Below are positions 18,399-35,204 of a stretch of DNA of 36,695 bases, in pieces. The notes under the pieces were generated by a model. The model saw only the letters and a list, made by a program, of their open reading frames with translations. It was not told the origin of the DNA and ran no database searches. Within the stretch, counting starts at the first letter, position 1. Each line of letters begins with the position of its first letter. Source of the DNA: Candidatus Woesearchaeota archaeon (GTDB lineage Archaea; Nanobdellota; Nanobdellia; Woesearchaeales; B72-G16); assembly GCA_003650545.1 (NCBI GenBank), contig QMQO01000001.1, positions 68,845 to 105,539 on the forward strand, given 5' to 3'. Position numbers and translations under genes: made by a program.

Positions 18399-18554
18399 TG
18401 AGCCCGAGGGGATTTGAACCCCCGACTTCGAGAGATTAAATCTGTGTTTTGATCTTCACTCGATCTCTAGCCTGGCTTACCTTTTTTTTTCAGGATATCA
18501 GTTTTGCTGTCTCTTGTGAGACTCGAGCACTCCACCAGACTAAGCTACGGGCTC
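18399..18554 (-). tRNA. tRNA-Ile(GAT) with three BHB introns: 18503-18523 (position 30/31), 18465-18495 (37/38), 18427-18456 (45/46)
   Basis: Removing the introns gives a 74-nt cloverleaf: GAGCCCG TA GCTT AGTCTGGTG GAGT G CTCGA CT-GAT-AA TCGAG TGGTC GGGGG TTCAAAT CCCCT CGGGCTC A. Confidence 0.9.
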
Positions 18555-18578
18555 GATGAAAAGGGCCTTATGGCCCAA

Positions 18579-18765
18579 CGCCTCCGGGCAGATTTTCTCG
18601 CTGCGAAAGCAAGCTCACAACATCTCGAACTGCCGACCTTTGCCGGGTAAAGCGTTTAGTTTTACCTTGCGGTGACTGCTAGTAGGTTTAACAGCTTCGT
18701 GGTCTCAGAGAGACTCGCACGCTCTACCTATTGCTCCATGCTTAACATGTCTAAGCTACGGAGGC
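18579..18765 (-). tRNA. tRNA-Asn(GTT) with five BHB introns: 18731-18750 (15/16), 18696-18715 (30/31), 18674-18688 (37/38), 18640-18667 (43/44), 18593-18623 (59/60)
   Basis: Removing the introns gives a 73-nt cloverleaf: GCCTCCG TA GCTT AGTAGGTA GAGC G TGCGG CT-GTT-AA CCGCA AGGTC GGCAG TTCGAGT CTGCC CGGAGGC G. Confidence 0.9.
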
Positions 18766-18788
18766 ATGTATTTTGGATAAATTAGTCG

Positions 18789-18796
18789 TTTTTAAA
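18789..18796 (-). promoter_or_regulatory. Putative TATA box for a tRNA-Asn/tRNA-Ile co-transcript
   Basis: TTTAAAAA lies about 24-31 nt upstream of the tRNA-Asn 5' end. Confidence 0.5.
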
Positions 18797-18921
18797 GTTT
18801 ACTGTTTTCTGTTTTGAGTGCTCATTGTGAAAATTGGTTACAAAAATGATCTTCTATGTTATCTGTTATCTTTCTGAGATTTTATAGTAGAAATTACAGA
18901 AAAAAAATTTAGGTGATTGTA

Positions 18922-20057
18922 CTAAAATAGTCTTTTCTGTCCAGATTCATCATCATGTTTTAAATCATACCAAGATATAGCCATTTGAAATGGTGAATGT
19001 CCCATTGGTTTTTCTATATAAAAGTGACCACAGCTTTTATTGCTTCTAAAATTACCATGATGCATGTCTCTATTGTAGCCAGCATCTTCGGTTTGATAAA
19101 TTATATCTGATTTTACTGCATCTCTTGTAGAATCTTTATATGTTTTTACAAATCTAACAAAACGTGGTGTGATCATGCCTTCGAATCTTGCAATTCCTAG
19201 AATATCTTCTATTCTTCCACTGACATGCTCTTTGTTCGTTTGTCAATAAAAAGTTCAAAATAACCACTTGATGGTTTAGTTACGTCCCATGTACCTACTA
19301 AATCCGGTTCTTCGTCAGAAAATCTTCCTCTCTCCAAAAAATTAATTGCTTTTCTCAAGCTGATAAAATCATAAGCAACATTTAGATCTGGAATGGCTTC
19401 ATCTATGAATCTTAAAATAAACTTAGAATCTACAACAATATCAGTTGAATATTGTCCAAATTCAATTCCATATTCCTCCTTAATTTCTTTTTGGTTTAAC
19501 ATCCACGCATCAGTATGCCCAATTCCAGCAATAACAGTTTGCACTTCTGCAGCAACAATGTTTCTTAAAATAGCATCGTCTCTTTCTATTAGGTGTATTC
19601 TGTCAGAATTAATCTGAGCCCTGTATAACTTTTCATTTAGCTCTACTAATTTTTTATAATGGTCCCTTTGTGACAGATCATAGTCTAATTCAGAATATTT
19701 TTCTATTATCTTCCTAACTTCAATTATTGTCTGAACATATTTTAACCAAGTAGTTTTATCCTCAAGCCATATAATCCTATGACCAGATGCTGTACAGATC
19801 TGGGCTATTCTGTCCCAGTACCTTGTTGAAGATAGGTAAGCCACCCTAAAACTATTATCGTGACAGATGGCCATAAGATTAGCTTTTACTTCTATCCAGT
19901 CTTCTGGACTTAAATTTTCAATTCCAACTCTAGTCCCTGCAGGAATTTGTTTCAATTTTTCTTCTAATTCTGAAGAAGGTTCTAGATCTATTTCTATTTT
20001 GCCTGACAACAAGTTTACTATATATCCCCCATGCACAACGCCGAACAGTCTTATCAT
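18922..20057 (-). pseudogene. Hypothetical protein split by a 1-nt frameshift near 19230-19240 (joins ORFs 19209..20057 and 18922..19176)
   Basis: ...YFELFIDKRT continues in the shifted frame as EHVSGRIEDILGIARFEGMITPRFVRFVKTY, which runs into the 84 aa ORF. It could be a pseudogene or a sequencing error. Confidence 0.6.
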
Positions 20058-20240
20058 CTTACTTTATCTTTTACTTTACCCTTTTATTTTACCTAGGAAT
20101 ATTAAGATCTTTTCGCTATTAATTCTTGTAACAATATTAACCTTAAAAATCTTTTGGAATAGTAATATGAAATAATGGGATGGAATAGTGGAAAGATAGC
20201 TGATTAGATTCTTTTGAACAGACAATTTTTTATTTAAGAC

Positions 20241-20547
20241 TTATCTAGTTGCTGTTTTCCATAAATATTCAAAATAGTTCTTATAAGATTCATAGACCTT
20301 TTTGTGTTCTATTAAAATGCCTATTGGATTTTCCACCCATATGATCATCGCAACTTTTCCATCAAAAACATACCGTAGAAACAGAAGAATTGAATTCTGA
20401 CAGGACATATTTTATTGTTGTTAGGGGTATTATTGTTGGTTTTATTTTAATGTTAGCTACAATTCGCATTTTAATTTTTCTCTTTACTCTTTCTTTGTTC
20501 CATTTTGGGTAATCATATGGCAAATATTCTTTTATTTTGTATTCAGC
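20241..20547 (-). pseudogene. Truncated, frameshifted C-terminal domain of a TrmB-like transcriptional regulator (not in the ORF track)
   Basis: Minus strand reads AEYKIKEYLPYDYPKWNKERVKRKIKMRIVAN...IKYVLSEFNSSVST, then an extra base near 20373, then YVFDGKVAMIIWVENPIGILIEHKKVYESYKNYFEYLWKTATR*. There is an in-frame TGA just upstream and no HTH domain. Confidence 0.7.
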
Positions 20548-20600
20548 TCAAGCCACAAACCAAAACCTTTATATTCGCTCTACTTCTTCATTGTTATAAA

Positions 20601-21164
20601 ATGAACATTGGCTTACTGATAATAATGAGCGTGTACTTCTTTTTACCAGGTGCTTTTGCTAACATGGCTCCTGTTTTCTCTAAAAACATTTTGAAATGGA
20701 TGGCTAAACCGGTTGATTTTGGTTTTAAAGTTCGTGGCAAGCCGTTATTTGGAAAGAATAAAACTTTCCGTGGATTTTTTGTTGGTTTTGTTTATGCTCT
20801 AATTGTTGTATGGGTACAAAAATGGTTGTTTTTGGATTATCCAATTATGAGAGAAATAGCTGTTATTGATTATTCAGCTATCAATATATTCATGTTGGCA
20901 TTTTTGATGAGTTTTGGAGTTCTTATTGGCGATGCTGCCGAATCTTTTTTTAAGAGACAGCGTGGTGTAGAACCTGGAAGATCATGGTTTCCATTTGATC
21001 AACTTGACTTTGTATTTGGATTTTTGATTTTTACACTTTGGACAGTTCCGTGGTTAGTTAATAAATGGTATGTTGCATTAATACTGGTTATAACAATCCC
21101 GATTTTTCATGTGATCTTTAATATTTTTGGGAAATTATTAAAATTAAAAAAAACTTGGATATGA
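20601..21164 (+). CDS. carS: CDP-archaeol synthase
   Basis: Motifs PGAFANMAPV, PVDFG, LFGKNKTFRG, GDAAESFFKRQRG and FPFDQLDF. The start was moved from 20505 to ATG 20601. Confidence 0.88.
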   Translation: MNIGLLIIMSVYFFLPGAFANMAPVFSKNILKWMAKPVDFGFKVRGKPLFGKNKTFRGFFVGFVYALIVVWVQKWLFLDYPIMREIAVIDYSAINIFMLAFLMSFGVLIGDAAESFFKRQRGVEPGRSWFPFDQLDFVFGFLIFTLWTVPWLVNKWYVALILVITIPIFHVIFNIFGKLLKLKKTWI

Positions 21165-21184
21165 AGATAGGGTGACCACCTAAA

Positions 21185-21616
21185 ATGGTAGAACAAACAC
21201 AAACTGAATCTGTCCTGCAGCAACAAGTTTATCCCAAAACAAAGCTGATTTCAGCTCCATGTGAAAAAACAAATGAAGACATATTAAAGATTCTTGCAGC
21301 TGTTGGGTACCCTATATGGATTTTTGCTGCTATAACAATTGCACTTTCTAAGAAAGGAGATAAGTGGCGCTACCACGGATGGCAGGCATTGTTTCTATTT
21401 GTTTGTTATATCATACTGTTCCTCGCATTAGAAACAGTGAAGATGATTTTTGGATTTATATTAGGGGTAGGGTTTATCTTTGGAATGTTACAATGGCTAT
21501 TAACAATTGCGTATTTAACAACAGCAATAGTTTATGGTGTTAAGGCGTATTCTGGCAAAATGTTTCAGATACCATTTGTGTATAAGTTTATGATGATTTC
21601 TATTAAGGAATATTGA
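21185..21616 (+). CDS. Small membrane protein (DUF4870-like)
   Basis: Three TM segments; motifs RYHGWQALFL and KAYSGKMFQIPFV. Confidence 0.65.
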   Translation: MVEQTQTESVLQQQVYPKTKLISAPCEKTNEDILKILAAVGYPIWIFAAITIALSKKGDKWRYHGWQALFLFVCYIILFLALETVKMIFGFILGVGFIFGMLQWLLTIAYLTTAIVYGVKAYSGKMFQIPFVYKFMMISIKEY

Positions 21617-21786
21617 TACTTCTTATTTTTTTAATTTTTTATCTTCTATTTTTTTTTACCTTTTTGATTTTATCTGTCTGAATATTTTTGATTTTATCTT
21701 CCTGAAAGTATGAACTTGTTTTTCTGAAATTATAAATACTTATTTCAGTAAACTATTTATTAATCACTAAATTATGTTTATCTTGG

Positions 21787-22959
21787 ATGCAAAAAAGAGG
21801 TTTTTTCCGCGGCATTGGTAAGAATGTTTTGATCTTAGGTTTTGTTAGTATGCTAACTGACTTAAGTAGTCAGATGGTGTTTCCTTTAATACCACTTTTC
21901 TTGTTATCTGTTCTAAAATCGCCAGCATGGGTTATAGGTTTGATAGAAGGTTCGGCTATTACAACTGCTAGTATTTTTGATGCGTTGTCCGGTCATTGGT
22001 CTGACATTGCACAAAAAAGGAAAAGATTTGTGTTTTTAGGGTATGGATTGTCGACTATAACAAAGCCGCTGTTTGCTTTGGCAACAGTATGGCCTTTTGT
22101 TTTGATTACTAGAATTGTTGAACGTGTTGGTAAGGGTATTAGAGACGCACCGCGTGATGCGCTCATTGCAGAATCGACTACTGTTAAGGCAAGGGGAAAG
22201 GCGTATGGCTTCCAACGTTCGTTAGATGGTATTGGTTCGATATTAGGAGCATGTGCAGCTTATCTGCTGCTCGACATTCTAGGGTATAGAAAACTCTTCT
22301 TGTTAACTTTTATTCCTGGATTTTTTACTGTTCTTCTTATTCTTTTTGTGAAAGAAAAAAAGAGGATTAAATATTATAAGAAAGAAAAACTGAAAATTGG
22401 TTTGAAAAATTTTCCATTAAACCTTAAACTATTCATCATAATGTCAGCTGTATTCTATCTTGGTAATTTTGGTTATACTTTTTTGTTGTTAAAGGCTAAA
22501 GATATTGGAGTTCAAGATAGCTCTGCAGTTTTAATGTACATATTGTTCTATGTTGTTTATTCTTTGTTCACTATTCCAGCAGGATTATTGTCTGATAAAC
22601 TTGGAAGAAAGCCTATACTCCTAGTTGGGTATGCTTTGTTTACAATAACATCTATAGGTTTGGTTTTTTCGACTTCGTTGTTGTCTGTTGTTGTATTTTT
22701 TGCAATTTTCGGAGTATTTTTTGCTGCTGTTGATAGTGTTCAAAGAGCTTTTGCAGTGGATCTGGCGCCTAAACGTCTAAAGGCCACGGCTTTGGGAACA
22801 TTACATGCTGCAATCGGTCTTGTTGCCCTACCTGGTGGTTTTATTGCGGGTATGTTGTGGGACAAAATTAGCCCTGCTGCAACATTTATTTATGGAGCGG
22901 TGTTGGCTGCTATTGCTATTGTAATGTTTTTCTTGTGCATTAAGCCAAAGAAGCGCTAA
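21787..22959 (+). CDS. MFS transporter
   Basis: About 12 TM segments; motifs GLLSDKLGRK and RVGKGIRDAPRDALIA. Confidence 0.9.
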   Translation: MQKRGFFRGIGKNVLILGFVSMLTDLSSQMVFPLIPLFLLSVLKSPAWVIGLIEGSAITTASIFDALSGHWSDIAQKRKRFVFLGYGLSTITKPLFALATVWPFVLITRIVERVGKGIRDAPRDALIAESTTVKARGKAYGFQRSLDGIGSILGACAAYLLLDILGYRKLFLLTFIPGFFTVLLILFVKEKKRIKYYKKEKLKIGLKNFPLNLKLFIIMSAVFYLGNFGYTFLLLKAKDIGVQDSSAVLMYILFYVVYSLFTIPAGLLSDKLGRKPILLVGYALFTITSIGLVFSTSLLSVVVFFAIFGVFFAAVDSVQRAFAVDLAPKRLKATALGTLHAAIGLVALPGGFIAGMLWDKISPAATFIYGAVLAAIAIVMFFLCIKPKKR

Positions 22960-23417
22960 AGCAAAATAAGAATGATTCCAATCACTAAAAACCAAACATA
23001 TTCGATAAATAATTTACCTAACATTTTTTTAAGATTGAGTTTTTCATTATTTGCAAAGAATATTACCCCTATTGTCAAGCCAAGTAAGTAAATTAATGTT
23101 GCTACAAGCTCAAAGCTCTGAAGTGTGAGTGTAGATGCATAATAGAATATAAAAGCGGTCAGTGGAAAAAGTATCCTGTTGCTTAGGTTAAAGAACAATA
23201 ACAACATAAATATGGGGGCTGCAATAAAAGCTGCATATGGGTTAACGAAGTAAGCAAATGTTCCTAGAATACCTGAGAAAAGCGAATTCTTGATGACTCT
23301 TATGTACTTTAAAGCGGGCTTTACTTCTAGCTTTGAGAGATATGCAAGTATTAAGCCAATATAAATAGAAAGAAAAGAAATAACCAATGTTGTTAGAAGA
23401 TTTATCTGTTTGACCAT
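22956..23417 (-). CDS. Hypothetical membrane protein
   Basis: 153 aa, multiple hydrophobic segments. Confidence 0.65.
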   Translation of the reverse strand: MVKQINLLTTLVISFLSIYIGLILAYLSKLEVKPALKYIRVIKNSLFSGILGTFAYFVNPYAAFIAAPIFMLLLFFNLSNRILFPLTAFIFYYASTLTLQSFELVATLIYLLGLTIGVIFFANNEKLNLKKMLGKLFIEYVWFLVIGIILILL

Positions 23418-23548
23418 TTTAGTAGTGGTTTGCCTCTTTTTTGGCCAAGCCAGAGAAATCTTTCGTCAATGCTTTCTTTTTTTCTTAGCAAATACGTTGT
23501 CAACACCGTAATCAACATTATTCCTATTAAGGTGATTATTTCGATCAT
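23402..23548 (-). CDS. Small (48 aa) single-TM protein, below the ORF-track cutoff
   Basis: MIEIITLIGIMLITVLTTYLLRKKESIDERFLWLGQKRGKPLLKWSNR*. It has a GGTGA SD-like motif and fills the gap between alba and the next gene. Confidence 0.55.
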   Translation of the reverse strand: MIEIITLIGIMLITVLTTYLLRKKESIDERFLWLGQKRGKPLLKWSNR

Positions 23549-23585
23549 ACTACTGTCACCCCCAAATTGTTTATTTATTGTTTAT

Positions 23586-23867
23586 TTATTTCTTACTTAG
23601 TAAGATTTCAATAGAGCTGACTCTTACTTGTTTACCTTCTTTATTTTCGAATTCATCTGAGTCTATTTTGATATCCTTTACTTCTACTTGGTCTTTTAGG
23701 AAGCGTTTTATCGCTACTTCGGCTACGTCTACTGCTCTTGAAATAAATTTGCCGCGTGCTTTTACTATTATTTCGTCTGCATTTTTAGTCGTGAACTGCA
23801 TCACTATTGCAGTAACGTAGTTCATAAAGGGTTTGCCCCCAACAAAGATAGAGTTGTCTCCTGCCAT
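23586..23867 (-). CDS. albA: DNA/RNA-binding protein Alba
   Basis: IFVGGKPFMNYV...KARGKFISRAVDVAE...VSSIEI. Confidence 0.95.
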   Translation of the reverse strand: MAGDNSIFVGGKPFMNYVTAIVMQFTTKNADEIIVKARGKFISRAVDVAEVAIKRFLKDQVEVKDIKIDSDEFENKEGKQVRVSSIEILLSKK

Positions 23868-23879
23868 TGCTAAACCTCC

Positions 23880-24074
23880 TTAAAGTTCTTCTTTTGTTTT
23901 TGTAAGTCTTGTAACATACCCTGCAATGATGTTTCTTAGTTTTTTACTTGGAATGTTTGCGAATTTTTCAACTAGTTTTTTATTCTCTTCAAAATTGTTC
24001 TTAAATTCATCTCCGTACTCTCTAATCAATTCGTGTGTTTTTCTCTTTATCAATTGTGTTCTGATACGTCCCAT
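23880..24074 (-). CDS. rps17e: 30S ribosomal protein S17e
   Basis: MGRIRTQLIKR...FEENKKLV...SKKLRNIIAGYVT. An alternative start lies at 24083. Confidence 0.95.
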   Translation of the reverse strand: MGRIRTQLIKRKTHELIREYGDEFKNNFEENKKLVEKFANIPSKKLRNIIAGYVTRLTKTKEEL

Positions 24075-24483
24075 TACTGGCATGATTTTGATTTTTGTTT
24101 ATAAAAGTTTTGTAGAAAGATACATATTTTTAAATGATTGCTATATGGAAATAAAAAAATAGACTAGATATTTTCTTTTTTATTTTTTAGATTTGTCTAT
24201 TATTTTTTTTAGCTTTTTTGAAACTTAGTTTTCTAAAAGCGTACTTTTATAGATAAAATTCATTTTTTTTGGTAGATAAATTTTTATGGATAAGAGCGAT
24301 AAGAGCTAATCAACAAATAAAAATTGATGGAAAATAAAAAATGCAAACCCTTAAATATTCCTTATTTTTTTCAAAATATAAACCTATGACGTATGAAGGC
24401 GAAAGTCTGAAGAGGTAATTCATTGAATTACTTCTGGTAAAGTTAATAAAGACTAAGAGATAAAAACTAAGAGAGGGGTAATT

Positions 24484-24804
24484 ATGGCTGATGAAGATAA
24501 AATCTATGAAATTATCGAGGTCGCAAGAAGTACTGGTAAGATCAAAAAAGGAACAAATGAAGTGACAAAAACACTTGAAAAGGGTGCTGCTAAACTGGTT
24601 GTTGTTGCAAAAGATATCACACCACCCGAAGTGGTGATGCATCTTCCTTTACTTGCTAAAGAGAAGAATGTACCGCTAGTGGAAGTGCCAAGTAAAGAAG
24701 AGCTTGGTGCAGCAGCAGGCTTAAGTGTGGGTACTGCAAGTGTTGCAGTCATTCAAGAAGGGGAAGCAAAAAACCTTATCGAAGCATTGAAGAGCGAAGG
24801 TTAA
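24484..24804 (+). CDS. rpl7ae: 50S ribosomal protein L7Ae
   Basis: [12 protein letters not shown]...[16 protein letters not shown]...ELGAAAGL. Confidence 0.95.
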
Positions 24805-24806
24805 AA

Positions 24807-25112
24807 ATGGGGTCTACAAAGATAAGGGATTATACAAAGTTTAAGAAAGGTCAAGAAGCACAGACAAAAGGGCAGATTAACTTCAGTACAGCAGTTCCAG
24901 CAAGAGTCGAAGAGATAATAGGTCGGACCGGTGCAAGAGGCGAAGCTATTCAAGTTAGGTGTAAGGTCTTGGAAGGACGGGATCAGAACAAAGTGCTTAG
25001 ACGAAATGTTAAAGGACTTGTTAGGATCGGAGACATCCTGATGCTACGTGAGACTGAGATAGAAGCACGACCTTTGAGTAGGAAGGGTAGGGGTGTGATA
25101 AGAAATGTCTAG
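24807..25112 (+). CDS. rps28e: 30S ribosomal protein S28e (N-terminally extended)
   Basis: [21 protein letters not shown]...[19 protein letters not shown]. Confidence 0.93.
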
Positions 25113-25293
25113 ATGTGACTTCTGTAAAAAGGTTATAGAGCGTGGTACAGGAAAGATATATGTCAAATCAGATGGCAAAATTCTTTATTTTTGTTCAAGT
25201 AAATGTGAAAAGAATACATTTAAGCTAAATAGAAAATCACGTGAAACAAAGTGGACTCGCGAGTACCATAAACTAAAGAAGACAGGTAGATGA
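25105..25293 (+). CDS. rpl24e: 50S ribosomal protein L24e
   Basis: CDFC...[21 protein letters not shown]...KWT. Confidence 0.95.
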
Positions 25294-25299
25294 TGAAAA

Positions 25300-25890: not shown

Positions 25891-25912
25891 TAGTTTTGAC
25901 TAAGGTGGTAGA

Positions 25913-26581: not shown

Positions 26582-26602
26582 ATCTTTGATAGATGAAGAT
26601 GG

Positions 26603-26686: not shown

Positions 26687-27071
26687 CTGCTTCTATGCCC
26701 ATGTTTGCTAAGGAATATTTTAAATAAACTATGATTTACTATTTTAAATAACATAGAATTTAACATTTACGAACCTATACAACTTTGAAGTTGAACGAAA
26801 GATTTAAAAACGGCTCTCAAATACTTTGATATAACTTATCCTTAAGTAAGAATATGTTACCACTGTTACCACATCTTGTGGTTAACAATTTTCGCGGATT
26901 TGAATGACGAGAATGACGAGCAAGGATAAATGTTGCAAAACCTGTTTAAATGCAATAAAATAGCTAATCAATAGCGTAAAATTCAAAAAATTTAATTATT
27001 ACTCAATGAGAAGAAAGATGCTCAAGATTTAGAAATTGATTTGGACTTTATGAGAGGAGGTATGAAAAAAC

Positions 27072-29287
27072 ATGGCTGAAAGGATGGTTGAAAAGGTTAC
27101 TAGGCTCATGAAAGAGCAATCACAAATCAGAAACATCGCTATTGCGGCCCATATCGATTGAGATTAAAGCGAGAGCTTATTCTCCGAGTGCATGGAAAAA
27201 CCACATTTTCTGATAACCTTCTAGCTGGTGCTGGAATGATGGCTGAAGAACTAGCCGGAAAAGCTTGTGTTCTTGATTTTCGTGAAGACGAACAAGAAAG
27301 AGGAATCACAATCGATGCTGCCAATGTTTCGATGGTGCATGAATTTGAAGGCGAAGAATATCTGATAAATCTTATCGATACTCCAGGTCATGTTGACTTT
27401 GGCGGCGATGTAACAAGAGCGATGCGCGCTGTTGACGGTGCTATTGTGCTTTGTTGCGCTTCTGAAGGGATAATGCCTCAGACAGAGACTGTTCTGAGGC
27501 AGGCTCTAAAAGAAAGAGTTAAGCCTATCTTATTTATCAATAAAACTGATCGCTTGATCAAGGAGCTTCAGCTAACGCCTGAAGCAATGCAAGAACGATT
27601 TATTAACATAATAAACAATGTTAATCAACTGATAAGAGGTATTGCAGAAAAGGAGTACGCAGAAAAATGGCTTGTTAATGTGCAGGATGGTAGCGTTTGT
27701 TTTGGTTCTGCATTTCATAATTGGGCGTTATCTCTTCCATATATGAAAAAGAAGGGAATTACGTTTAAGGATATAATTTCTGCTTACCAAAGTGGAAATG
27801 ATGAGGATTGGAAGGCTCTTAAGAAAAAGGCGCCATTACATGAAGTTGTTCTTGATGCAGTTGTAAAGCATTTACCAAATCCTCTTGAAGCTCAAGAATA
27901 TAGAATCCCTAAGATTTGGCACGGTGAACTTGAAAGTGAAGAAGGTAGGTCGTTAGTCAAATGTGATTCGAAGGGACCATTATTTTTTGTGATTACTAAG
28001 GTTGTTATAGATCCGCAGGCTGGCGAGATTTCAGCTGGCAGGCTCTTTTCTGGAACAATGACTAAAGGAACTCAGGTTTTTTTGAATCGTGCAAGGCAAC
28101 ATGCAAGGATACAACAAGTTTATATTTATAACGGAGCAAAGCGCGAGATTGTTGACAATGTTCCAGCAGGAAACATAATAGGTGTTGGTGGATTGAAACT
28201 GGGTTTACCTGGTGAAACAGTAACCTTTGAAGATACAGAACCGTTTGAGAAGATCACTCACATCTTTGAGCCGGTTGTAACAAAGGCAATCGAAGCTAAG
28301 AAGCCTAGCGACTTACCAAAGTTAATAGAAGTGCTAAGGCAGGTCCAGAAAGAGGATCCTACTATAACAATCAATATTAATGAGGAGACAGGTGAGCATT
28401 TAATGAGTGGGATGGGAGAACTCCACTTGGAGGTTATTGAGCATAGAATTGTTAAGGATAAAGGTATCGAAGTACAGACTTCCCCTCCTATAGTTGTTTA
28501 CAGAGAAGCAATCACAAAACCAGGTGAGGAATATATGGGTAAGTCACCTAACAAACATAATCACCTATTTTTCGAAGTAAGACCATTAATGCCAGAGGTT
28601 GCGAAAAAAATAAAGAAGGATGAAATATATGAAGGTAGGATCAAGAAAAAGGATCAGAAGTTGATAGATGCATTTGTTGAGGCTGGCTATGATGCAAAGA
28701 CAGCTGCGAAGATTAAGAATGTTTGTAAAGGCAATATACTAATAGATGGTACTCGAGGTATAGTACATATTGGCGAGATAATGGAGATGGTAAATGACAT
28801 GTTTGAAGATGTGATGAATGCAGGTCCAATAGCAAGAGAGCCTTGTATTAATATGGAGGTTACACTAACTGATTGTAAACTACATGAAGATGCTATTCAT
28901 CGTGGACCTGCACAGATCTACCCTGCTGTTCGTGAGGGTATCCGTGGAAGTATTATGTCTGCAAAACCCATTATATTTGAACCAGTACAAACATTACAGT
29001 TTGAGGCACCAGCAGAATATATGGGCGAGTTGAGTAAATTAGTGAGCAATAAACGTGGACAGTTATTGGAGATGAACCAAGAAGGAACGATTGTTGTTGT
29101 TAAGGCAAAGTTACCTGTTGGAGAAATGTTTGGATTAAGCTCAGACTTAAGATCTGCAACAGGAGGCAGAGGAAACTTCTATTTGATTGACCAGAGCTAT
29201 CAAAAACTGCCAGACGAGTTACAACAGAAGATCATTAAACAGATTCGTGATAGGAAAGGTTTGAAAGAAGGGCAGGTTGGGGTATAG
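27072..29287 (+). CDS. fusA: Archaeal elongation factor 2, intron-split: exon 1 27072-27158, exon 2 27191-29287 (727 aa after splicing)
   Basis: Exon 1 MAERMVEKVTRLMKEQSQIRNIAIAAHID joins exon 2 HGKTTFSDNLL...ERGITI...DTPGHVDF...HEDAIHRGPAQ. GAGGAGG lies upstream. The ORF-track start at 27158 is an artefact of the intron. Confidence 0.95.
27159..27190 (+). other. 32-nt BHB-type mRNA intron in the EF-2 gene
   Basis: Sequence TGAGATTAAAGCGAGAGCTTATTCTCCGAGTG. Exon helix CCAT/ATGG, central helix ATCG/CGAG, bulges AT|T and TG|C, intron helix GAGA/TCTC, terminal AAGC-GAGA-GCTT hairpin. Confidence 0.88.
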
Positions 29288-29567
29288 ATTCTTAATAGAT
29301 TCTTAAATTAATGTAGCTTAGGTTAAGTCAACCTTGATAGGTTAACTTTGATAGGTTAAACTGCCCTGTTTCACATGTACCAAAGATGACTAGAAGCATC
29401 TAATATTAGCATACTTATTAGCACACTTAAGTTGATAGTGCCATTAGCTTGAATCAAAAAATTGTTCTGTTAAATAATTATTTTCTTATATAGAAATAAT
29501 AGTAACATTTATAAATATGGTCAAAAACCCATATAGAACTTATTTATAATAGTTGGAGGGGTATTAC

Positions 29568-30860
29568 ATGGCAAAAGATAAAGAACATATCAACATAGTG
29601 TTCATCGGACATGTTGATCATGGTAAATCCACGATTGTTGGAAGATTACTATTTGACAGCGGTAATATCGATGAACAGACACTTAGAAAGTTGAAGGAAA
29701 AAGCAGCAGAGCTAGGTAAAGCTGGCTTCGAGTTCGCTTTTGTGATGGATAACCTGAAAGAGGAGCGAGAACGTGGGGTTACTATTGACCTAAGCCATAA
29801 GAAGTTTACAACTGATAAATATTACTTTACTATAATCGATGCTCCTGGACATAAAGACTTCATCAAGAACATGATTACCGGCGCAAGCCAGGCTGATGTA
29901 GCTGTTCTGGTTGTAGCTGCAAATGATAGTGTGATGGCACAGACAAAAGAACACGCCTATCTTGCAAAGGTACTTGGAGTGCAACAGATGATTGTTGCAA
30001 TTAATAAGATGGACATTAAAGGAGTAGAGTATAGTGAAGAACGATTCAACAAAGTTAAAGAAGATGTCACAAACTTGCTAAAGTCGATAGGATTTAAGAC
30101 AGAAGAGATACCATTCTTGCCTGTTGCAGCTCTTGTTGGGGATAATATTGTAAAAAAGAGTGAAAAAATGGAATGGTATAAAGGCGATACTCTTCTGCAG
30201 GCTATGGATAACCTAAATCCACCAGAAAAACCTACTGAATTACCATTGAGACTACCAATACAGGATGTATATAATATTACTGGTATTGGTGTTGTCCCTG
30301 TTGGTAGGGTTGAGACAGGCGTAATGAAGGTTGGCGATAAAGTAATTGTTGTGCCAGCTCGAGAAGGTAAAGGTATAACTGGTGAAGTGAAGAGTATAGA
30401 GATGCATCATGAGCAGATGGATCAAGCTGAGCCTGGTGATAATGTTGGTTTTTCAGTGAGAGGTATTGGAAAGAAAGATGTAGCAAGGGGAGATGTTTTA
30501 GGCCACGTAGATAATGTGCCGACTGTAGCAGAAGAATTTACAGCGCAGATTATTGTGCTAAATCATCCTAGTGTGATAACTGCTGGTTATACACCTGTTT
30601 TCCACATTCACACAGCACAGGTTGCATGTACTATTACTGCGATTGAAAAGAAGCTAAACCCTGCAACAGGTGAAGTTATGCAGGAGAATCCTGATTTTAT
30701 CAGGAATGGCGATGCTGCTATAGTAAAAATCAAGCCAACACAACCTTTATGCATTGAAAAGAAAGAAGATATTCCGCAAATGTCAAGCTTTGCTATTAGG
30801 GATAGTGGTGCGACAGTCGCAGCAGGTATGTGTATTGACTTGAAAAAGAAAGAAATATAA
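29568..30860 (+). CDS. tuf: Archaeal elongation factor 1-alpha
   Basis: [26 protein letters not shown] and NKMD. ATG 29568 follows a GGAGG SD motif. Confidence 0.97.
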
Positions 30861-30952
30861 ATTTTTATTTTAAGTTTTTATCAAATCCTAAAAACCAGCT
30901 TTTAGTTGGTTCATGGTAAATGATCGTAAAGTTTATCATGAGGTAAACGACC

Positions 30953-31264
30953 ATGCAAAAAGCTAGAATCAAGATTGCAAGTGCAGATATAGATAAAGTG
31001 AACCAAGTATGTGACCAGATTAGAGGTATTGTTGAGCAGGTTGGTGTTGATATGCGTGGTCCGATACCTTTGCCGACCAAAAAATTAAAGGTTACAACAA
31101 GACGTTCTCCCTGTGGCGATGGAAAGGCTACTTGGGAGCGCTATGAAATGCGTATCCATAAAAGGTTGATTGATGTTTCAGTTGATGAACGAGTTCTTAG
31201 GTTGATTATGAGGGTTGCTATCCCTGAAGGATTAAATATAGAGATTGAGATGGTTGGAGGATAA
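30953..31264 (+). CDS. rps10: 30S ribosomal protein S10 (uS10)
   Basis: RGPIPLPTKKLKVTTRRSPCGDG...WERYEMRIHKRLID. Confidence 0.96.
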   Translation: MQKARIKIASADIDKVNQVCDQIRGIVEQVGVDMRGPIPLPTKKLKVTTRRSPCGDGKATWERYEMRIHKRLIDVSVDERVLRLIMRVAIPEGLNIEIEMVGG

Positions 31265-31265
31265 T

Positions 31266-31273
31266 TTTATAAA
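31266..31273 (+). promoter_or_regulatory. Putative TATA box for tRNA-Ser(GGA)
   Basis: TTTATAAA lies 26-33 nt upstream of the tRNA. Confidence 0.55.
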
Positions 31274-31298
31274 TCAAGTATTATTCTTCTAATGTAAA

Positions 31299-31555
31299 GC
31301 CGCGGTCGCATAACCTGGTACGCTTACTCGCTTATGTTCGTAAAGCGTACATCTTCCACACTATTGATGGGCTTCGCTTGGCGTGTCCTATCCTGAGCAA
31401 TGGAAGAATGATGGAAGAATGTTATGTGCGATGTGTATGTGAGAAGCGCAGGAGATTGCGCTGGATTGGAGATCCAGTTCCTTTGGGAATTGTGGGTTCA
31501 AAAACGTTGAAGCAAAACTGAAGAAACTTCACGATTGAATTTCCCACCCGCGGCG
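31299..31555 (+). tRNA. tRNA-Ser(GGA) with two BHB introns: 31320-31454 (135 nt, D-loop 20/21) and 31503-31541 (39 nt, 59/60)
   Basis: Spliced 83-nt cloverleaf GCCGCGG...CTGGA TT-GGA-GA TCCAG, long variable arm, GTGGG TTCAAAT CCCAC CCGCGGC G. The length and body match tRNA-Ser(CGA). Confidence 0.9.
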
Positions 31556-31579
31556 TATTTAAAATGAAAATTATTTAAA

Positions 31580-32581
31580 ATGAAAATAGCTATATTGAGT
31601 GGAGGAAAGTGGGGAACAACCCTTTCTGTTCTATATGCACATAAATACCCTGATAGTAAAGTCAAGTTTTGGATACGTGCAGAAAGTAAATACCGGGATC
31701 AACCATTAGTAGAATATATAAAAACAAATAGAGTGAATCCAAAAAGATTTCTCGATATAAAAGTTCCTAATAATGTTTTTGTTTCTTCAGACATAAAATC
31801 TGTTGTTAATGATGTTGATATTGTTCTTTCTGCAATTCCTTCAGAATACCTGAAAGAACATCTTCCGAAACTAAAAGGACTTAATTTTAAACAGTTTGTG
31901 AACTGTTCAAAAGGAATTGTTGATGATAAACCTATTTCATTTTATTTTAAGAGTCTTTTAGCTGGGGTGCCATATGCAACTATTTCTGGACCAAATATCG
32001 CTAATGAGATTATTGCAAATTTTAATGATAGAGGCAAGATAAATCCTTCATTTGCAACTATTGCTTTTGATAATGAAAACGCTATACAAGATTTGGTTTC
32101 AATATTAGATTTTAAACCTTATTTTATATTAGATCCACATAACGATATAAAATCAGTAGAATACTGCGGAATACTTAAACAGGTATATGCTTTAGCATTA
32201 GGTATCTGCGTTGGACTTGGTTATAGTGGAAATACCATTGCAGGGCTTTTCCACGCATGTGGTAGAGAAATTAAAAAACTGTTGGCGTTTCTAAATGCAA
32301 ATCCTAATGTGTATGACGAGACATATGCTGGCTATCCTGATCTGGAAGTGACTTATAAGTTCGCTAGACATGGAAGAACAGGCAAACTTATAGCTGAACA
32401 TGGCTTAAATGCTGCGAAAGAAGAGATGAAGGGTGAATGTATAGAAGGATTTAGGGTGCTTGAATCTATGTATAAACTAACAAATGATCTGATACATTTA
32501 CCCATCTTGAAATGGTTATATTCGATTATTTATCAGGAAGATGATATTAAACCAATATCTGAATTGGTAAATTCTTTTTAG
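31580..32581 (+). CDS. gpsA: NAD(P)H-dependent glycerol-3-phosphate dehydrogenase-like protein (GpsA family, divergent)
   Basis: KIAILSGGKWGT, NCSKG, ISGPNIANE and VEYCGILKQVYALALG. The usual GLGDL..TC..SRN region reads GYPDLEVTYKFARH. Confidence 0.8.
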   Translation: MKIAILSGGKWGTTLSVLYAHKYPDSKVKFWIRAESKYRDQPLVEYIKTNRVNPKRFLDIKVPNNVFVSSDIKSVVNDVDIVLSAIPSEYLKEHLPKLKGLNFKQFVNCSKGIVDDKPISFYFKSLLAGVPYATISGPNIANEIIANFNDRGKINPSFATIAFDNENAIQDLVSILDFKPYFILDPHNDIKSVEYCGILKQVYALALGICVGLGYSGNTIAGLFHACGREIKKLLAFLNANPNVYDETYAGYPDLEVTYKFARHGRTGKLIAEHGLNAAKEEMKGECIEGFRVLESMYKLTNDLIHLPILKWLYSIIYQEDDIKPISELVNSF

Positions 32582-32818
32582 GATTATGGTAGTTTATTTT
32601 GGTTGGATCAAAGGAGTAAAGCAAGAAAGAACCTTAATTTCCGATTACCTTATTTTCGGTTTAACTTAATTAATTTTAACCAGTTGCATAATTTCAATTT
32701 TACAATTACAGAAACCTTTAAAAATAAATGATTTTCTTGTGTACATATATATAGTTAGTATGTACAGTTAGTTATTTAGGTTATTTAGTATGTTTAAAAT
32801 AGCAGGATAAAAATTAGT

Positions 32819-32893
32819 GCCTCTGTAGTGTAGTCCGGCCAATCATATTGCCCTCTCGAGGCAATGACCCGGGTTCAAATCCCGGCGGAGGCA
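32819..32893 (+). tRNA. tRNA-Glu(CTC), no intron
   Basis: GCCTCTG...TTGCC CT-CTC-GA GGCAA TGAC CCGGG TTCAAAT CCCGG CGGAGGC A. Confidence 0.95.
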
Positions 32894-33029
32894 TCCTAAG
32901 GTTATTCTTTCAAAGAGGTATTCTTGCTAAAGTGTAAATATTATTATTCTCACGATAAAAGTTCCAAAAATACTATGAATGCTGGAATTGCAATCAATCT
33001 GATTCAGTCTACTGGGATTTGATTAGACT

Positions 33030-33476
33030 TTACTTCAATAATAACTTCTTAGCTTTCTTCTTTAACTGTGCAACCTTTGGCAATGTTATCTTTAAAACAC
33101 CATTCTTAAACTCGGATTTTGCCTTATCAGGGTTAACAATTGCAGGTAGTGTAAACGCTCTATAAAAACCACTATAAGATCGCTCTTGTCTGTAGAAATC
33201 TTTTTTCTTAACCTCGATTTCTTCCTTTTTTTTAGCTTTTATCTCTATTCTTTCGGGTTCGACATTGATGATGATGTCTTTCTTATCGATACCTGGAAGC
33301 TCCGCAGTAATTTCTATTGCATTCTTCTTGTCCCTAACATCAACCAATGGCTGTCTTAACTGTATACCAGTTCTTTTCATAATCTTTTTCTGTTCAGCCC
33401 AGAAGTCATCAAACATCTTATCCATTTCCCTTCGAAAACGTTTCATTTCTTCAAAAGGATCCCAGATGTCTTTCAT
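33030..33476 (-). CDS. hsp20: Small heat shock protein (Hsp20/alpha-crystallin)
   Basis: PLVDVRD...AELPGIDKKDI...ERSYSGFYRAFTLP...FKNGVLKITLPK. Confidence 0.93.
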   Translation of the reverse strand: MKDIWDPFEEMKRFRREMDKMFDDFWAEQKKIMKRTGIQLRQPLVDVRDKKNAIEITAELPGIDKKDIIINVEPERIEIKAKKKEEIEVKKKDFYRQERSYSGFYRAFTLPAIVNPDKAKSEFKNGVLKITLPKVAQLKKKAKKLLLK

Positions 33477-33600
33477 GGTGTATCACCTCCTTTTTAGACG
33501 TAGTTTCGAATTACTATTTATAGCTTTGTATTTTTAAGAAATCAAGCATAGTCCCTTGTTTGATAATTTATATAAAATATAAGTTAATTCTTTTATCTTT

Positions 33601-34137
33601 ATGGCACACACAAAACCAATACCAAAGGTTAAACTTTTTATAGGAATAATGTATGTTAATGAAACTTTCTTTAATAAGGCTGTTGAAATCTTAAAGCAGT
33701 CTTTTGGTGAAGTAGAAGACATATCCGAAAGTTATAATTTTAATCAGTTTACGGATTACTATAACAATGAGATGGGCGATGGGCAAGTGAAAAGATTTAT
33801 CGTTTTCAGGGATTTAATAGATAGGGATGAACTGGCGAATATTAAACATCTAACGAACAAGATTGAAGACGATTTTGCAGTGAATGGTAAACGCTTGATC
33901 AACTTAGATCCTGGCTATCTTACTGAGCATAACGTGGTTTTAGCAAGTGCCAAGGAACAACCGCACAAGGTTTCAATTGGTATGGGTATGTTTGGTGATG
34001 TTGTGCTCGTCTATAGAAGTGGTAACTATAGAAGCTATTTTAAAACATTTGCAGATTATAAAACAGAATTTGTACAGAAATATTTATTAAGTGTAAGAAA
34101 AAAGTATCTTCTGCAAAGGAGGTCGGAAAATGTGTGA
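33601..34137 (+). CDS. DUF4416-family protein
   Basis: FTDYYNNEMG, LANIKHLTNKIE and RLINLDPGYL...VVLASAK. Confidence 0.75.
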   Translation: MAHTKPIPKVKLFIGIMYVNETFFNKAVEILKQSFGEVEDISESYNFNQFTDYYNNEMGDGQVKRFIVFRDLIDRDELANIKHLTNKIEDDFAVNGKRLINLDPGYLTEHNVVLASAKEQPHKVSIGMGMFGDVVLVYRSGNYRSYFKTFADYKTEFVQKYLLSVRKKYLLQRRSENV

Positions 34138-34417
34138 AAATTGTGGATGTGGTTGTGAAAGAAAGGATGTTGATTGTTGCGAGAGCTGTGGAATGCCGAT
34201 GGAGTCTGTTGAGATGAGAGGGGGGGCTAAACCAGATAATAAGTATTGCAAGTATTGTTGTGACGAAAATGGCAATCTCAAGAGTAAGGAGGAAGTAAGG
34301 AAGGGGATGATTGAGTTTTATAAAGCGCAAGGAAAAAGTCAGGAAGAAGCTGAAAAGTTTGTTGACGATTATATGAAGAAGATGCCTGCTTGGAAAGAAG
34401 GAAAAGAAGGAGAATAA
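34130..34417 (+). CDS. Putative zinc-ribbon protein
   Basis: CESCGMPM...YCKYC...MKKMPAWK, with an extra Cys-rich N-terminus. Confidence 0.75.
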   Translation: MCENCGCGCERKDVDCCESCGMPMESVEMRGGAKPDNKYCKYCCDENGNLKSKEEVRKGMIEFYKAQGKSQEEAEKFVDDYMKKMPAWKEGKEGE

Positions 34418-34446
34418 ACTCAAATTAAAATGAAGGAGGTAATAAA

Positions 34447-34686
34447 ATGAAGAGTGGTGAGGCATTTAAATGGGTTGTATCAACAATAGCTAGTTATTTC
34501 TGCATTTACATAGCATTTTACATTATTAAGAATGTTTCTGTGATTAATCTTTGGCTATGGTCATTGATATTTTTGGTGCTGTTGTTCATAGCAATACTGG
34601 TGTGTCCATTCTTAAATAAAATGCTCTGTACATGTCAAACAGCTAAAAATCCCAAAAGAAAAAAAAGTAATACGGTCGTGGTCTAG
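34447..34686 (+). CDS. Small two-TM protein whose 3' end overlaps the tRNA-Gly gene
   Basis: Strong AGGAGGT SD motif; the TAG stop at 34684-34686 lies inside the tRNA D-arm. Confidence 0.6.
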   Translation: MKSGEAFKWVVSTIASYFCIYIAFYIIKNVSVINLWLWSLIFLVLLFIAILVCPFLNKMLCTCQTAKNPKRKKSNTVVV

Positions 34687-34828
34687 TGGTATGACCGCAC
34701 CCTCCCAATCTCTCAACCACAAGCAAAATTTTTGTGGAATAATAGGCGAGAGGTGCTAACCCGGGTTCGAAAGATTGTTAGGGTTAAGTCAAACCTGAAC
34801 CCTATCAGCGAAAATCCCGGCGGCCGTA
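34672..34828 (+). tRNA. Probable tRNA-Gly(CCC) with two introns: ~34707-34750 (37/38) and 34772-34814 (59/60); anticodon arm anomalous by 1 nt
   Basis: Acceptor ACGGTCG/CGGCCGT with discriminator A; D-arm GTCTAGTGGTATGAC; anticodon stem GCACC/GGTGC; 4-nt variable loop; T-arm CCGGG TTCGAA|T CCCGG with a perfect TTCG/CGAA BHB helix. Confidence 0.75.
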
Positions 34829-34846
34829 TTTTATCCGTATTTTATA

Positions 34847-35038
34847 TTAATTTATGGCTTTAAATTTTTTTATGCTTCTGTCATAGGTGCGTTCTATATC
34901 ATCCGGAAAAAAGCATGCTGGTAACTCACCTAAATTTTTATGATAAGCAATACACTCACAGCAGATACCTTTTTTGTCGCAGGGATAGGTGCAGTTGCAA
35001 TTCTTTAGATTTTCTTGCTTGTTTGGACAAGGTTTCAT
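34847..35038 (-). CDS. Small Cys-rich protein (DUF6485-like)
   Basis: [31 protein letters not shown]...ERTYDRS. Confidence 0.7.
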
Positions 35039-35060
35039 GATTATGCTTGGTTTGGTAATG

Positions 35061-35068
35061 TTTATAAA
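35061..35068 (+). promoter_or_regulatory. Putative TATA box for tRNA-Ser(CGA); may be shared with the divergent small gene
   Basis: TTTATAAA lies 26-33 nt upstream of the tRNA. Confidence 0.55.
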
Positions 35069-35093
35069 GATTGTTATATTCTATGTGTGATGA

Positions 35094-35204
35094 GCCGCGG
35101 TGGCACAATTAGGTACTGCGCTCGCCTCGAGAGCGAGTTCCTTCGGGAATTCCCGGTTCAAAAGCGTTGAATAAACTTAACGATTGAAAATCCGGGCCGC
35201 GGCG
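35094..35204 (+). tRNA. tRNA-Ser(CGA) with one 28-nt BHB intron at 35163-35190 (59/60)
   Basis: GCCGCGG...CTCGC CT-CGA-GA GCGAG, long variable arm, CCCGG TTCAAA|T CCGGG CCGCGGC G; central helix TTCA/TGAA. Confidence 0.93.

What the first reader, a model, noticed from the sequence alone, without database searches (positions are those of the whole stretch)
18399..35204. Genome-scale BHB intron invasion: 14 introns across tRNAs and an mRNA in one window
Seen in sequence: 13 introns in 5 of 6 tRNA genes, 10 of them at non-canonical sites (15/16, 20/21, 30/31 x2, 43/44, 45/46, 59/60 x4), plus the EF-2 intron. Many have relaxed motifs with a mismatched central helix or a missing outer helix. Inference: this lineage has a permissive splicing endonuclease and ongoing intron gain that has spread into protein-coding genes. 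One established hypothesis is that such introns destroy integration sites of mobile elements in tRNAs. The four T-loop introns fall in the 3' half that integrases usually target. 'Missing' tRNAs and 'pseudogenes' in related MAGs may be intron-split genes.
Basis: partly seen in the sequence, partly recalled or inferred. Interest (0 to 1): 0.85.

Follow-up and report, generated by a model that had tools for sequence, protein, structure and literature searches.

The report
Intron-riddled tRNA and protein genes
In this tiny DPANN archaeon nearly every tRNA gene is cut into pieces by one to five short protein-spliced introns, and the same kind of intron also interrupts the genes for translation factor EF-2 and ribosomal protein uL11, which is very rare in archaea.

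Summary
The window (a Woesearchaeota/DPANN MAG) holds six tRNA genes. A 32-nt BHB intron splits the P-loop codons of EF-2 (AHID|HGKT).

Genome-wide, my splice-aware search recovered 30 tRNA genes with 30 different anticodons. They carry 71 introns, 52 of them non-canonical; 59/60 is the commonest site (22). Twenty-seven of the 30 genes are interrupted. ARAGORN accepts all 30 spliced products, and none of 90 reversed or shuffled controls reached the threshold score.

A second split protein gene was found: uL11, with a 16-nt intron. All 29 relatives examined have it uninterrupted.

Short BHB-type inserts also sit in the EF-2 P-loop codons of 6 of 79 readable relatives, at three sites, scattered on the EF-2 tree.

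EndA is a single 176-aa alpha4-type gene with no insertion relative to the M. jannaschii enzyme. RtcB is present.

No RNA data exist, so splicing itself is inferred. Heavy tRNA disruption in DPANN is partly published, and this scan has already noted two multi-intron tRNAs elsewhere in this genome. tRNA genes with more than three introns, and EF-2 and uL11 mRNA introns, were not found in print.

The parts
18399..18554 (-). tRNA-Ile(GAT) gene with three introns: 18503-18523 (30/31, 21 nt), 18465-18495 (37/38, 31 nt), 18427-18456 (45/46, 30 nt)
   Evidence: Rfam tRNA 38.7 bits with an 85-nt gap. Splice-aware solution. ARAGORN calls the spliced product tRNA-Ile.
18579..18765 (-). tRNA-Asn(GTT) gene with five introns: 18731-18750 (15/16, 20 nt), 18696-18715 (30/31, 20 nt), 18674-18688 (37/38, 15 nt), 18640-18667 (43/44, 28 nt), 18593-18623 (59/60, 31 nt)
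   Evidence: Solved. The outer helix of the 37/38 intron forms only once the 30/31 intron is removed (1 pair in genomic context, 9 after). ARAGORN calls the spliced product tRNA-Asn. Not seen by ARAGORN or Rfam on the genomic DNA.
27072..27158 (+). EF-2 exon 1 (29 codons, MAERMVEKVTRLMKEQSQIRNIAIAAHID)
   Evidence: Read and translated. Relatives have the same N-terminus joined directly to HGKTT.
27159..27190 (+). EF-2 BHB intron, 32 nt, beginning with an in-frame TGA
   Evidence: It is the only cut that restores AHIDHGKTT. BHB counts (central H, outer h, inner h' pairs) 3,4,4, score 25. The MFE fold shows the outer and inner helices.
27191..29287 (+). EF-2 exon 2 (698 codons plus stop)
   Evidence: Pfam GTP_EFTU match starts at model position 14, followed by EFG domains II-V. 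61-77% identical to relatives' EF-2.
31299..31555 (+). tRNA-Ser(GGA) gene with two introns: 31320-31454 (20/21, 135 nt) and 31503-31541 (59/60, 39 nt)
   Evidence: BHB counts (H, h, h') 4,3,5 and 4,5,1.
32819..32893 (+). tRNA-Glu(CTC), uninterrupted
   Evidence: ARAGORN and Rfam, 59.5 bits.
34672..34828 (+). tRNA-Gly(CCC) gene with two introns: 34708-34750 (37/38, 43 nt) and 34772-34814 (59/60, 43 nt)
35094..35204 (+). tRNA-Ser(CGA) gene with one intron: 35163-35190 (59/60, 28 nt)
   Evidence: The central helix is UUCA/UGAA with all 4 pairs.

Best explanation
These are archaeal bulge-helix-bulge (BHB) introns, present at very high density.

Proposed mechanism: each primary transcript folds so that both exon-intron borders lie in 3-nt bulges on either side of a 4-bp helix. 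The splicing endonuclease EndA cuts both bulges, and the RNA ligase RtcB joins the exons. EndA here is one 176-aa alpha4-type gene.

In tRNAs this happens up to five times per transcript and is partly ordered. In tRNA-Asn, the outer helix of the 37/38 intron exists only after the 30/31 intron is removed.

The same machinery must remove a 32-nt intron from EF-2 mRNA and a 16-nt intron from uL11 mRNA. Unspliced EF-2 mRNA stops at the first intron codon, and unspliced uL11 mRNA is frameshifted.

Position 59/60 is the favoured site. I infer that this is because the exon side of its BHB is the universal T-loop sequence UUCR plus the T stem, so one intron design fits any tRNA.

Shown: gene structures, BHB geometry, restored products, presence of both enzymes, comparative presence and absence. 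Inferred: that splicing occurs, its order, and how the introns spread.
For: Window:
- 13 introns in 5 of 6 tRNA genes.

Genome:
- 30 tRNA genes with 30 distinct anticodons and 71 introns. ARAGORN accepts 30 of 31 spliced candidates; the rejected one was dropped.
- Only 7 tRNAs are visible to ARAGORN or Rfam before splicing.
- 0 of 90 control sequences reach the threshold.

EF-2:
- Exon 2 starts at Pfam GTP_EFTU position 14.
- The unique frame-restoring cut has BHB score 25, with a random frequency of 2.1e-5.
- 6 of 79 readable relatives carry 30-33-nt inserts in the same P-loop codons. In each, the frame-restoring cut is the best BHB (scores 21-31). Three of these inserts hold in-frame stops and the other three shift the frame.

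uL11:
- Exon 1 matches Pfam L11_N positions 2-19 and exon 2 matches positions 21-58. The split codon supplies position 20.
- BHB counts (H, h, h') 4,6,3, score 33, with a random frequency of 2.5e-7.
- 29 of 29 relatives are uninterrupted.

Enzymes:
- EndA is over the Pfam cut-off, with both domains.
- The Y/H/K catalytic positions align with the M. jannaschii enzyme (alignment; the identity of the triad residues is recalled).
- RtcB scores 456 bits.

Assembly:
- An independent assembler reproduces the 17 kb without a difference.
Against: - There is no RNA evidence. No RNA run holds this DNA.
- My search imposes the 3-4-3 geometry and picks intron sets that give a cloverleaf, so individual boundaries can be off by 1-2 nt, and weak ones could be mis-assigned. 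Examples are Ile 37/38 (score 16), Arg(CCT) 37/38 (11 nt, score 16) and Trp 15/16 (score 16).
- Only 18 of 71 introns are strict hBHBh'. 21 have a central-helix mismatch, 17 lack an outer helix and 23 lack an inner helix.
- EndA looks like the alpha4 type, which the literature describes as cutting only strict motifs (Kaneta 2018, passages).
- About 16 expected tRNAs were not recovered.
- The genome is a MAG, 85% complete with 3.9% contamination.
Confidence: 0.85

Rival explanations
1. The EF-2 and uL11 interruptions are not introns. They are sequencing or assembly errors, or real inactivating mutations (pseudogenes) in a population consensus.
For: - Both are short insertions that break the frame.
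- The genome is a MAG.
- A look-alike case does exist: the B12-radical-SAM gene at C3:39674-39698 is broken by a 25-nt tandem duplication that only mimics a BHB.
Against: - A second assembler gives the same 17 kb at a depth of about 34 with no variant.
- Neither insert is a tandem copy of its flank. Identity to the flank is 0.22 for EF-2 and 0.44 for uL11, against 0.60 for the duplication.
- The exact frame-restoring cut coincides with a rare BHB in both genes, and in six other genomes for EF-2.
- Both genes are essential and single-copy here. Only one uL11 match was found in the genome.
Confidence: 0.05
2. The inserts are passed over during translation, by programmed frameshifting or ribosome bypassing, rather than spliced out of the RNA.
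For: - Archaeal cbf5 introns were at first confused with frameshift sites (Yokobori 2009, conclusion passage).
- The inserts are short.
Against: - Inserts of 16-33 nt with stops at their start, each flanked by a BHB of the same geometry as the 71 tRNA introns in the same genome, are what EndA substrates look like.
- No slippery-site or take-off/landing codon pair was looked for.
Confidence: 0.03
3. The intron load is an old, inherited state of Woesearchaeales that is being lost in many lineages, not an ongoing invasion.
For: - Heavy tRNA disruption, measured by the proxy of few Rfam hits, is seen in many separate families of the order.
- The D|H introns of the window and of L023 are alike in sequence although the two are far apart on the EF-2 tree.
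- Loss of a cbf5 intron is documented in Crenarchaeota (Yokobori 2009, abstract).
Against: - The uL11 intron is in 0 of 29 relatives.
- EF-2 introns sit at three different sites. The sisters L049 and L064 differ in site.
- Similar 59/60 introns occur in the unrelated tRNA-Arg(GCG) and tRNA-Pro(TGG).
Confidence: 0.3

Closest known systems
Multiple-intron tRNA genes of Thermoproteales (Sugahara 2008 and Fujishima 2010, as summarised in Fujishima & Kanai 2014; passages read)
   Same: - BHB introns at canonical and non-canonical positions.
[quoted passage not shown]
- Similar introns occur in different tRNAs, suggesting transposition-like spread.
   Different: - That review gives a maximum of three introns per gene; here one gene has four and two have five.
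- The lineage is DPANN, not Crenarchaeota.
- EndA is a single alpha4-type gene rather than the (alpha-beta)2 type with a specific loop.
- 59/60 outnumbers 37/38 (22 versus 19).
cbf5 pre-mRNA intron of Desulfurococcales and Sulfolobales (Watanabe 2002, recalled; Yokobori 2009, abstract and conclusion read)
   Same: - A short BHB intron inside a protein-coding gene, to be removed by the tRNA splicing endonuclease.
- Lineage-specific gain and loss.
   Different: - Different genes (EF-2, uL11), a different phylum, and a different EndA type.
- EF-2 introns occupy three nearby sites in different genomes.
- Splicing is not shown here.
DPANN tRNA disruption and EndA diversity (Kaneta 2018; passages read)
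   Same: [quoted passage not shown]
- Flags incomplete tRNA sets, including in one Woesearchaeota genome.
   Different: - That paper links the disruption to an 'L3' insertion. The EndA here aligns with M. jannaschii EndA with room for only one extra residue (172 residues against 171), so I see no such insertion.
- The passages I read give no intron counts per gene and mention no mRNA introns. I did not see its Figure 7.

Membership tests
Archaeal BHB (bulge-helix-bulge) intron | Two 3-nt bulges separated by a 4-bp helix, with a cleavage site in each bulge | tested here: met
   All 13 window introns, the EF-2 intron and the uL11 intron fit with 3 or 4 of 4 central pairs. The geometry was imposed by my search. 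Such scores are rare by chance: 2.1e-5 at score 25 or more.
Archaeal BHB (bulge-helix-bulge) intron | Flanking helices h and h' (strict hBHBh') or at least one of them (relaxed) | tested here: met
   18 of 71 are strict. The others keep at least one flanking helix of 3 or more pairs, or a perfect central helix.
Archaeal BHB (bulge-helix-bulge) intron | Removal yields a functional product | tested here: met
   30 of 30 retained spliced tRNAs are called by ARAGORN, each with a unique anticodon. Removal restores the EF-2 and uL11 reading frames and conserved motifs, which match relatives.
Archaeal BHB (bulge-helix-bulge) intron | Splicing endonuclease and RtcB ligase encoded in the genome | tested here: met
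   EndA at C6:38247-38774 scores 111 bits to PF01974. RtcB on C10 scores 456.7 bits.
Archaeal BHB (bulge-helix-bulge) intron | Spliced RNA or a circular intron observed | not testable with these tools
   No RNA run holds this DNA.
alpha4-type (homotetrameric) EndA | One gene of about 180 aa with an N-terminal and a catalytic domain, and no second subunit gene | tested here: met
   176 aa with PF02778 and PF01974. Only one match in the genome at E<=1 with its own sequence, and one with the Pfam model. The genome is 85% complete, so a missed paralogue is possible.
alpha4-type (homotetrameric) EndA | No specificity-loop insertion (L1/L2/L3 of Kaneta 2018) | tested here: inconclusive
   Residues 5-176 align to residues 1-171 of the M. 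jannaschii enzyme, leaving room for at most one inserted residue. The N. equitans alpha subunit has six extra residues next to the catalytic His that this protein lacks. I could not see the paper's definition of L3.

The most novel reading that the evidence does not exclude
BHB introns in this lineage behave as small mobile elements that can enter any abundant transcript able to offer a short self-complementary docking site. The universal T-loop (59/60) is the main port of entry in tRNAs. The EF-2 P-loop codons (CCAU...AUGG, made by two His codons) are a recurrent port in mRNA; they are hit at three positions in different genomes, and inteins also insert there. A by-product would be that synthesis of two partners at the ribosome's GTPase centre, EF-2 and uL11, depends on the EndA/RtcB splicing capacity. 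All of this would run on an alpha4-type endonuclease that lacks the known broad-specificity loops.
Probability: 0.25. Interest if true: 0.9.

Novelty: new variant of a known kind. Interest (0 to 1): 0.75.

Why it matters
1. Gene finders miss most tRNAs of such genomes. Here 7 of at least 30 were seen. They would also call EF-2 and uL11 truncated or absent, which distorts completeness estimates and metabolic readings of DPANN MAGs.

2. In the papers I could read, the only archaeal pre-mRNA splicing confirmed so far is in cbf5. Two essential translation genes with BHB introns, one of them recurrent across a whole order, would widen that to a general phenomenon and give test substrates.

3. An alpha4-type EndA without known loops, in a genome where 53 of 71 introns are relaxed, challenges the published link between enzyme type and intron diversity.

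4. Five introns in one tRNA gene exceeds the published maximum of three.

Tried and rejected
- **RNA evidence.** No RNA holder was listed for the EF-2 region. Only the probable source DNA run was found.
- **Early search scripts.** The first versions were too slow or timed out. They were replaced by a weighted BHB filter and an arm-chaining search.
- **Other split CDS candidates.**
  - B12-radical-SAM at C3:39674-39698 is a 25-nt tandem duplication, not an intron.
  - GatD, NDK/ADK, exosome, CobA-like, RNase HII, NifS, TBP and TFB junctions are adjacent genes or gene starts.
  - C2:85156-85174, C11:23315-23331 and C21:10990-11029 are unresolved; Pfam gives no shared family.
  - The relaxed scan (score 18 or more, introns up to 80 nt) gave 483 loci. 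I recognised only EF-2 and uL11 as split conserved genes. In-frame introns without stops, and introns in unknown proteins, would be missed.
- **rRNA.** The SSU gene has inserts of 46 and 43 nt in hairpin loops. The best BHB at the first is weak (counts H, h, h' 3,7,2, score 22), so it is not settled. The LSU gene was not analysed beyond its length.
- **EndA comparison.** Genomes with few and with many detectable tRNAs both have a single gene of equal length, so no obvious difference was found.
- **Missing tRNAs.** Ala, Thr, further Met, Glu(TTC), Gln(TTG), Pro(GGG/CGG), Val(GAC), Leu(TAA) and possibly other tRNAs were not recovered. Possible reasons are the limits of my seeds, more than six introns, split genes, or the missing 15% of the genome.
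- **Integration-site protection hypothesis.** Not tested.


Full report
**What the window is.** It is 36.7 kb of a 1.64-Mb, 36% GC, 133-contig MAG, 85% complete. The nearest EF-2 sequences are 61-77% identical. By their record titles they are mostly Candidatus Woesearchaeota, Pacearchaeota or Nanoarchaeota MAGs; the remaining titles read 'uncultured Methanosarcinales archaeon' or simply 'archaeon'. That places the organism in DPANN. All 40 sampled relatives are of the same order but of other families.

**Checking the observation.** ARAGORN finds one tRNA in the window and Rfam finds two. Reading the G+C-rich islands showed six tRNA-like loci.

I wrote a splice-aware search with three steps.
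- It lists candidate introns that fit the BHB geometry: exon positions a-6..a-3 pair with intron positions b-5..b-2, there is a 3-nt bulge on each strand, and the helices are scored by pair type.
- It lets an outer helix be read across another strong intron.
- It chains D, anticodon and T arms and the acceptor stem over all ways of skipping such introns.

| Gene | Intron positions |
|---|---|
| Ile(GAT) | 30/31, 37/38, 45/46 |
| Asn(GTT) | 15/16, 30/31, 37/38, 43/44, 59/60 |
| Ser(GGA) | 20/21 (135 nt), 59/60 |
| Gly(CCC) | 37/38, 59/60 |
| Ser(CGA) | 59/60 |
| Glu(CTC) | none |

These come; coordinates are under parts. In tRNA-Asn the outer helix of the 37/38 intron has 1 pair in the genomic sequence and 9 once the 30/31 intron is skipped. 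This implies an order of splicing.

**Is it more than chance?**
- ARAGORN, which knows nothing of my scoring, of 31 spliced candidates tRNAs. I dropped the rejected one.
- The 30 have 30 different anticodons, with no duplicate.
- Reversed and shuffled versions of the 30 loci (90 sequences) gave one solution, at score 16.2, below the threshold of 20.
- A Logan contig of the probable source run covers window 18300-35300 with no difference and no gap at a depth of about 34. The inserts are therefore not an artefact of the MAG's assembler. This is not independent data.

**Genome scale.**
- ARAGORN with intron search finds 7 tRNAs, and Rfam finds 7 over its cut-off.
- My search was seeded in two ways: on T-arm plus acceptor pairs (488 seeds, 217 kept), and on G+C-rich acceptor pairs (2038 seeds, 459 run). 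It recovers 30 genes with 71 introns.
- Introns per gene: none in 3 genes, one in 5, two in 5, three in 14, four in 1 (Arg CCT), five in 2 (Asn GTT, Trp CCA).
- Positions: 59/60 x22, 37/38 x19, 30/31 x5, 15/16 x4, 19/20 x3, 20a/21 x3, 20/21 x2, 43/44 x2, 45/46 x2, and nine single sites. So 52 of 71 are non-canonical.
- Lengths run from 11 to 135 nt.
- 18 of 71 are strict hBHBh'. 21 have a central mismatch, 17 lack an outer helix and 23 lack an inner helix.
- This is a lower bound.

Two of 2485 intron pairs are more alike than any of 2500 shuffled pairs. One pair is the 59/60 introns of the two Ser genes in the window. The other is the 59/60 introns of Arg(GCG) and Pro(TGG), which are unrelated tRNAs.

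**EF-2.**
- Exon 1 (27072-27158) ends ...AAHID, and the next codon is TGA. Exon 2 (27191-29287) begins HGKTTFSDN in another frame.
- Pfam's GTP_EFTU match in exon 2 starts at model position 14.
- Only one cut restores IRN...HIDHGKTT. It has h CCAU/AUGG, H UCG/CGA plus an A.G mismatch, bulges AU|U and UG|C, and h' GAGA/UCUC, for a score of 25. Scores this high occur in 2.1e-5 of 3.9e8 position pairs.

Of 80 relatives' loci:
- 1 is masked at the site.
- 69 are contiguous.
- 4 carry a long in-frame insert ending ...HN|TTFSDN. I read this as an intein from the recalled terminal motif and did not test it.
- 6 carry 30-33-nt inserts.

In all six with short inserts, the frame-restoring cut is the best BHB (scores 21-31):
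- L023, L074 and L075 are cut at D|H, as in the window.
- L043 and L064 are cut inside the Ile codon.
- L049 is cut at K|T.
- L043, L049, L074 and L075 have in-frame inserts. L043, L074 and L075 hold stop codons.

On an EF-2 tree the intron-bearing rows are scattered, each beside intron-less close kin. The D|H state needs 3 changes (at least 2 forced by well-supported branches) and is not clustered: 198 of 500 shuffles score as low. L049 and L064 are sisters with different sites (quick IQ-TREE, midpoint root).

**A second split protein gene.** I scanned all position pairs for strict BHBs (34,070 at score 22 or more) and asked which of them join two open frames. I repeated this with a relaxed threshold.
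- One clear case emerged besides EF-2: uL11 at C22:18173-18188. It is a 16-nt intron with counts (H, h, h') 4,6,3 and score 33, with a random frequency of 2.5e-7.
- Exon 1 matches Pfam L11_N positions 2-19 and exon 2 matches positions 21-58 plus the RNA-binding domain.
- The spliced junction reads AAPPLGPA-L-GPLGVNIGQ, as in relatives.
- All 29 relatives examined are contiguous: 25 by pattern and 4 by eye with one variant residue. One of them, L115, is from a genome flagged unpublished.
- A third candidate, a B12-radical-SAM gene, is a 25-nt tandem duplication and was rejected. The other candidates are adjacent genes.

**Enzymes.**
- EndA is a single 176-aa gene with both Pfam domains. No paralogue was found at E<=1.
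- Residues 5-176 align to residues 1-171 of M. jannaschii EndA. The protein lacks six residues that the N. equitans alpha subunit has next to the catalytic His.
- Nine relatives, five with many and four with few detectable tRNAs, all have one gene of the same length.
- RtcB is present in a 1008-aa open frame. Its Pfam match is split at model positions 45-50, which suggests an intein.

**Relatives.** Rfam tRNA hits per genome range from 0 to 41 among 40 genomes of the order. Nearly complete genomes with few hits include G011 (9), G013 (9), G016 (13, one contig), G017 (10) and G020 (10). Others have many: G004 (41), G025 (38) and G036 (39). This is a proxy for disruption, not an intron count.

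**What is known.**
- Fujishima & Kanai 2014 (passages) state a maximum of three introns per tRNA gene and describe intron transposition in Thermoproteales.
- Kaneta 2018 (passages) report DPANN alpha4-type EndAs with an 'L3' loop linked to increased tRNA disruption, and incomplete tRNA sets, including in one Woesearchaeota genome. I did not see its figure or supplements.
- Yokobori 2009 (abstract and conclusion) state that no archaeal pre-mRNA splicing other than cbf5 had been confirmed.
- Six full-text searches found no paper on BHB introns in EF-2 or uL11, on DPANN protein-gene introns, or on archaeal tRNA genes with four introns. The library omits most subscription journals.
- Earlier notes of this scan describe the three-intron tRNA-Phe and tRNA-Leu(UAG) of this same genome. 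My search re-found both.

**Verdict.** The reading 'BHB introns at genome scale, extending into mRNAs' is well supported at the DNA level. 'Permissive endonuclease' and 'integration-site protection' remain untested. Splicing itself is inferred.

Noticed in passing
L048, L061, L070, L073 (relatives' EF-2, just upstream of position 1501): Four relatives carry a long in-frame insert in the EF-2 P-loop ending ...NHNF[VI]AEGM[FV]IHN|TTFSDN. It looks like an intein at GK|T, a few bases from the BHB intron sites. The intein reading rests on a recalled terminal motif.
   Followed up: partly
G000 C10:11502-14324 (-), loci L082/L083: RtcB lies in a 1008-aa open frame. Its Pfam match is split (model 1-50 and 45-426) by about 1.5 kb, probably an intein.
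   Followed up: no
G000 C2:12700-14291 (-) SSU and C2:8872-12141 (-) LSU; L121: The 16S gene has 46- and 43-nt inserts in two hairpin loops, and the 23S gene is about 283 nt longer than the Rfam model. The best BHB at the first 16S insert is weak (counts H, h, h' 3,7,2), so mini-intron versus expansion is open.
   Followed up: partly
G000 C3:39674-39698 (+), L085: A B12-binding radical-SAM gene is frameshifted by a 25-nt tandem duplication that mimics a BHB. It is either a real mutation or a population variant.
   Followed up: yes
window 25300-25890 (+): The nucleoside diphosphate kinase ORF is 196 aa, and Pfam matches it in two stretches (the best covers model 66-135 at residues 102-181). This suggests an insertion of some 40 residues in the middle.
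   Followed up: no
window 18837-18923 (+): A weak Rfam match to a C/D-box snoRNA family (snoR27, E=7.2) with box-like AUGAU and CUGA elements lies right beside the two tRNA genes. It is possibly an archaeal C/D-box sRNA.
   Followed up: no
G000 C14:12371-12579 (tRNA-Leu CAA) and C36:8563-8729 (tRNA-Met CAT): Their 37/38 introns share TT(A/T)TTGAGTGATGAGC, which contains a box-C-like UGAUGA. They may encode or derive from a guide sRNA.
   Followed up: no
L049 and L064 (relatives' EF-2): These sister sequences on the EF-2 tree carry their introns at different sites, 9-10 nt apart (K|T versus inside the Ile codon). This could be intron sliding or independent gain.
   Followed up: partly
G000 contigs C23, C26, C44, C116: Candidate peptides from these contigs look G+C-rich and unlike the rest of the genome. 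They may be part of the 3.9% contamination.
   Followed up: no
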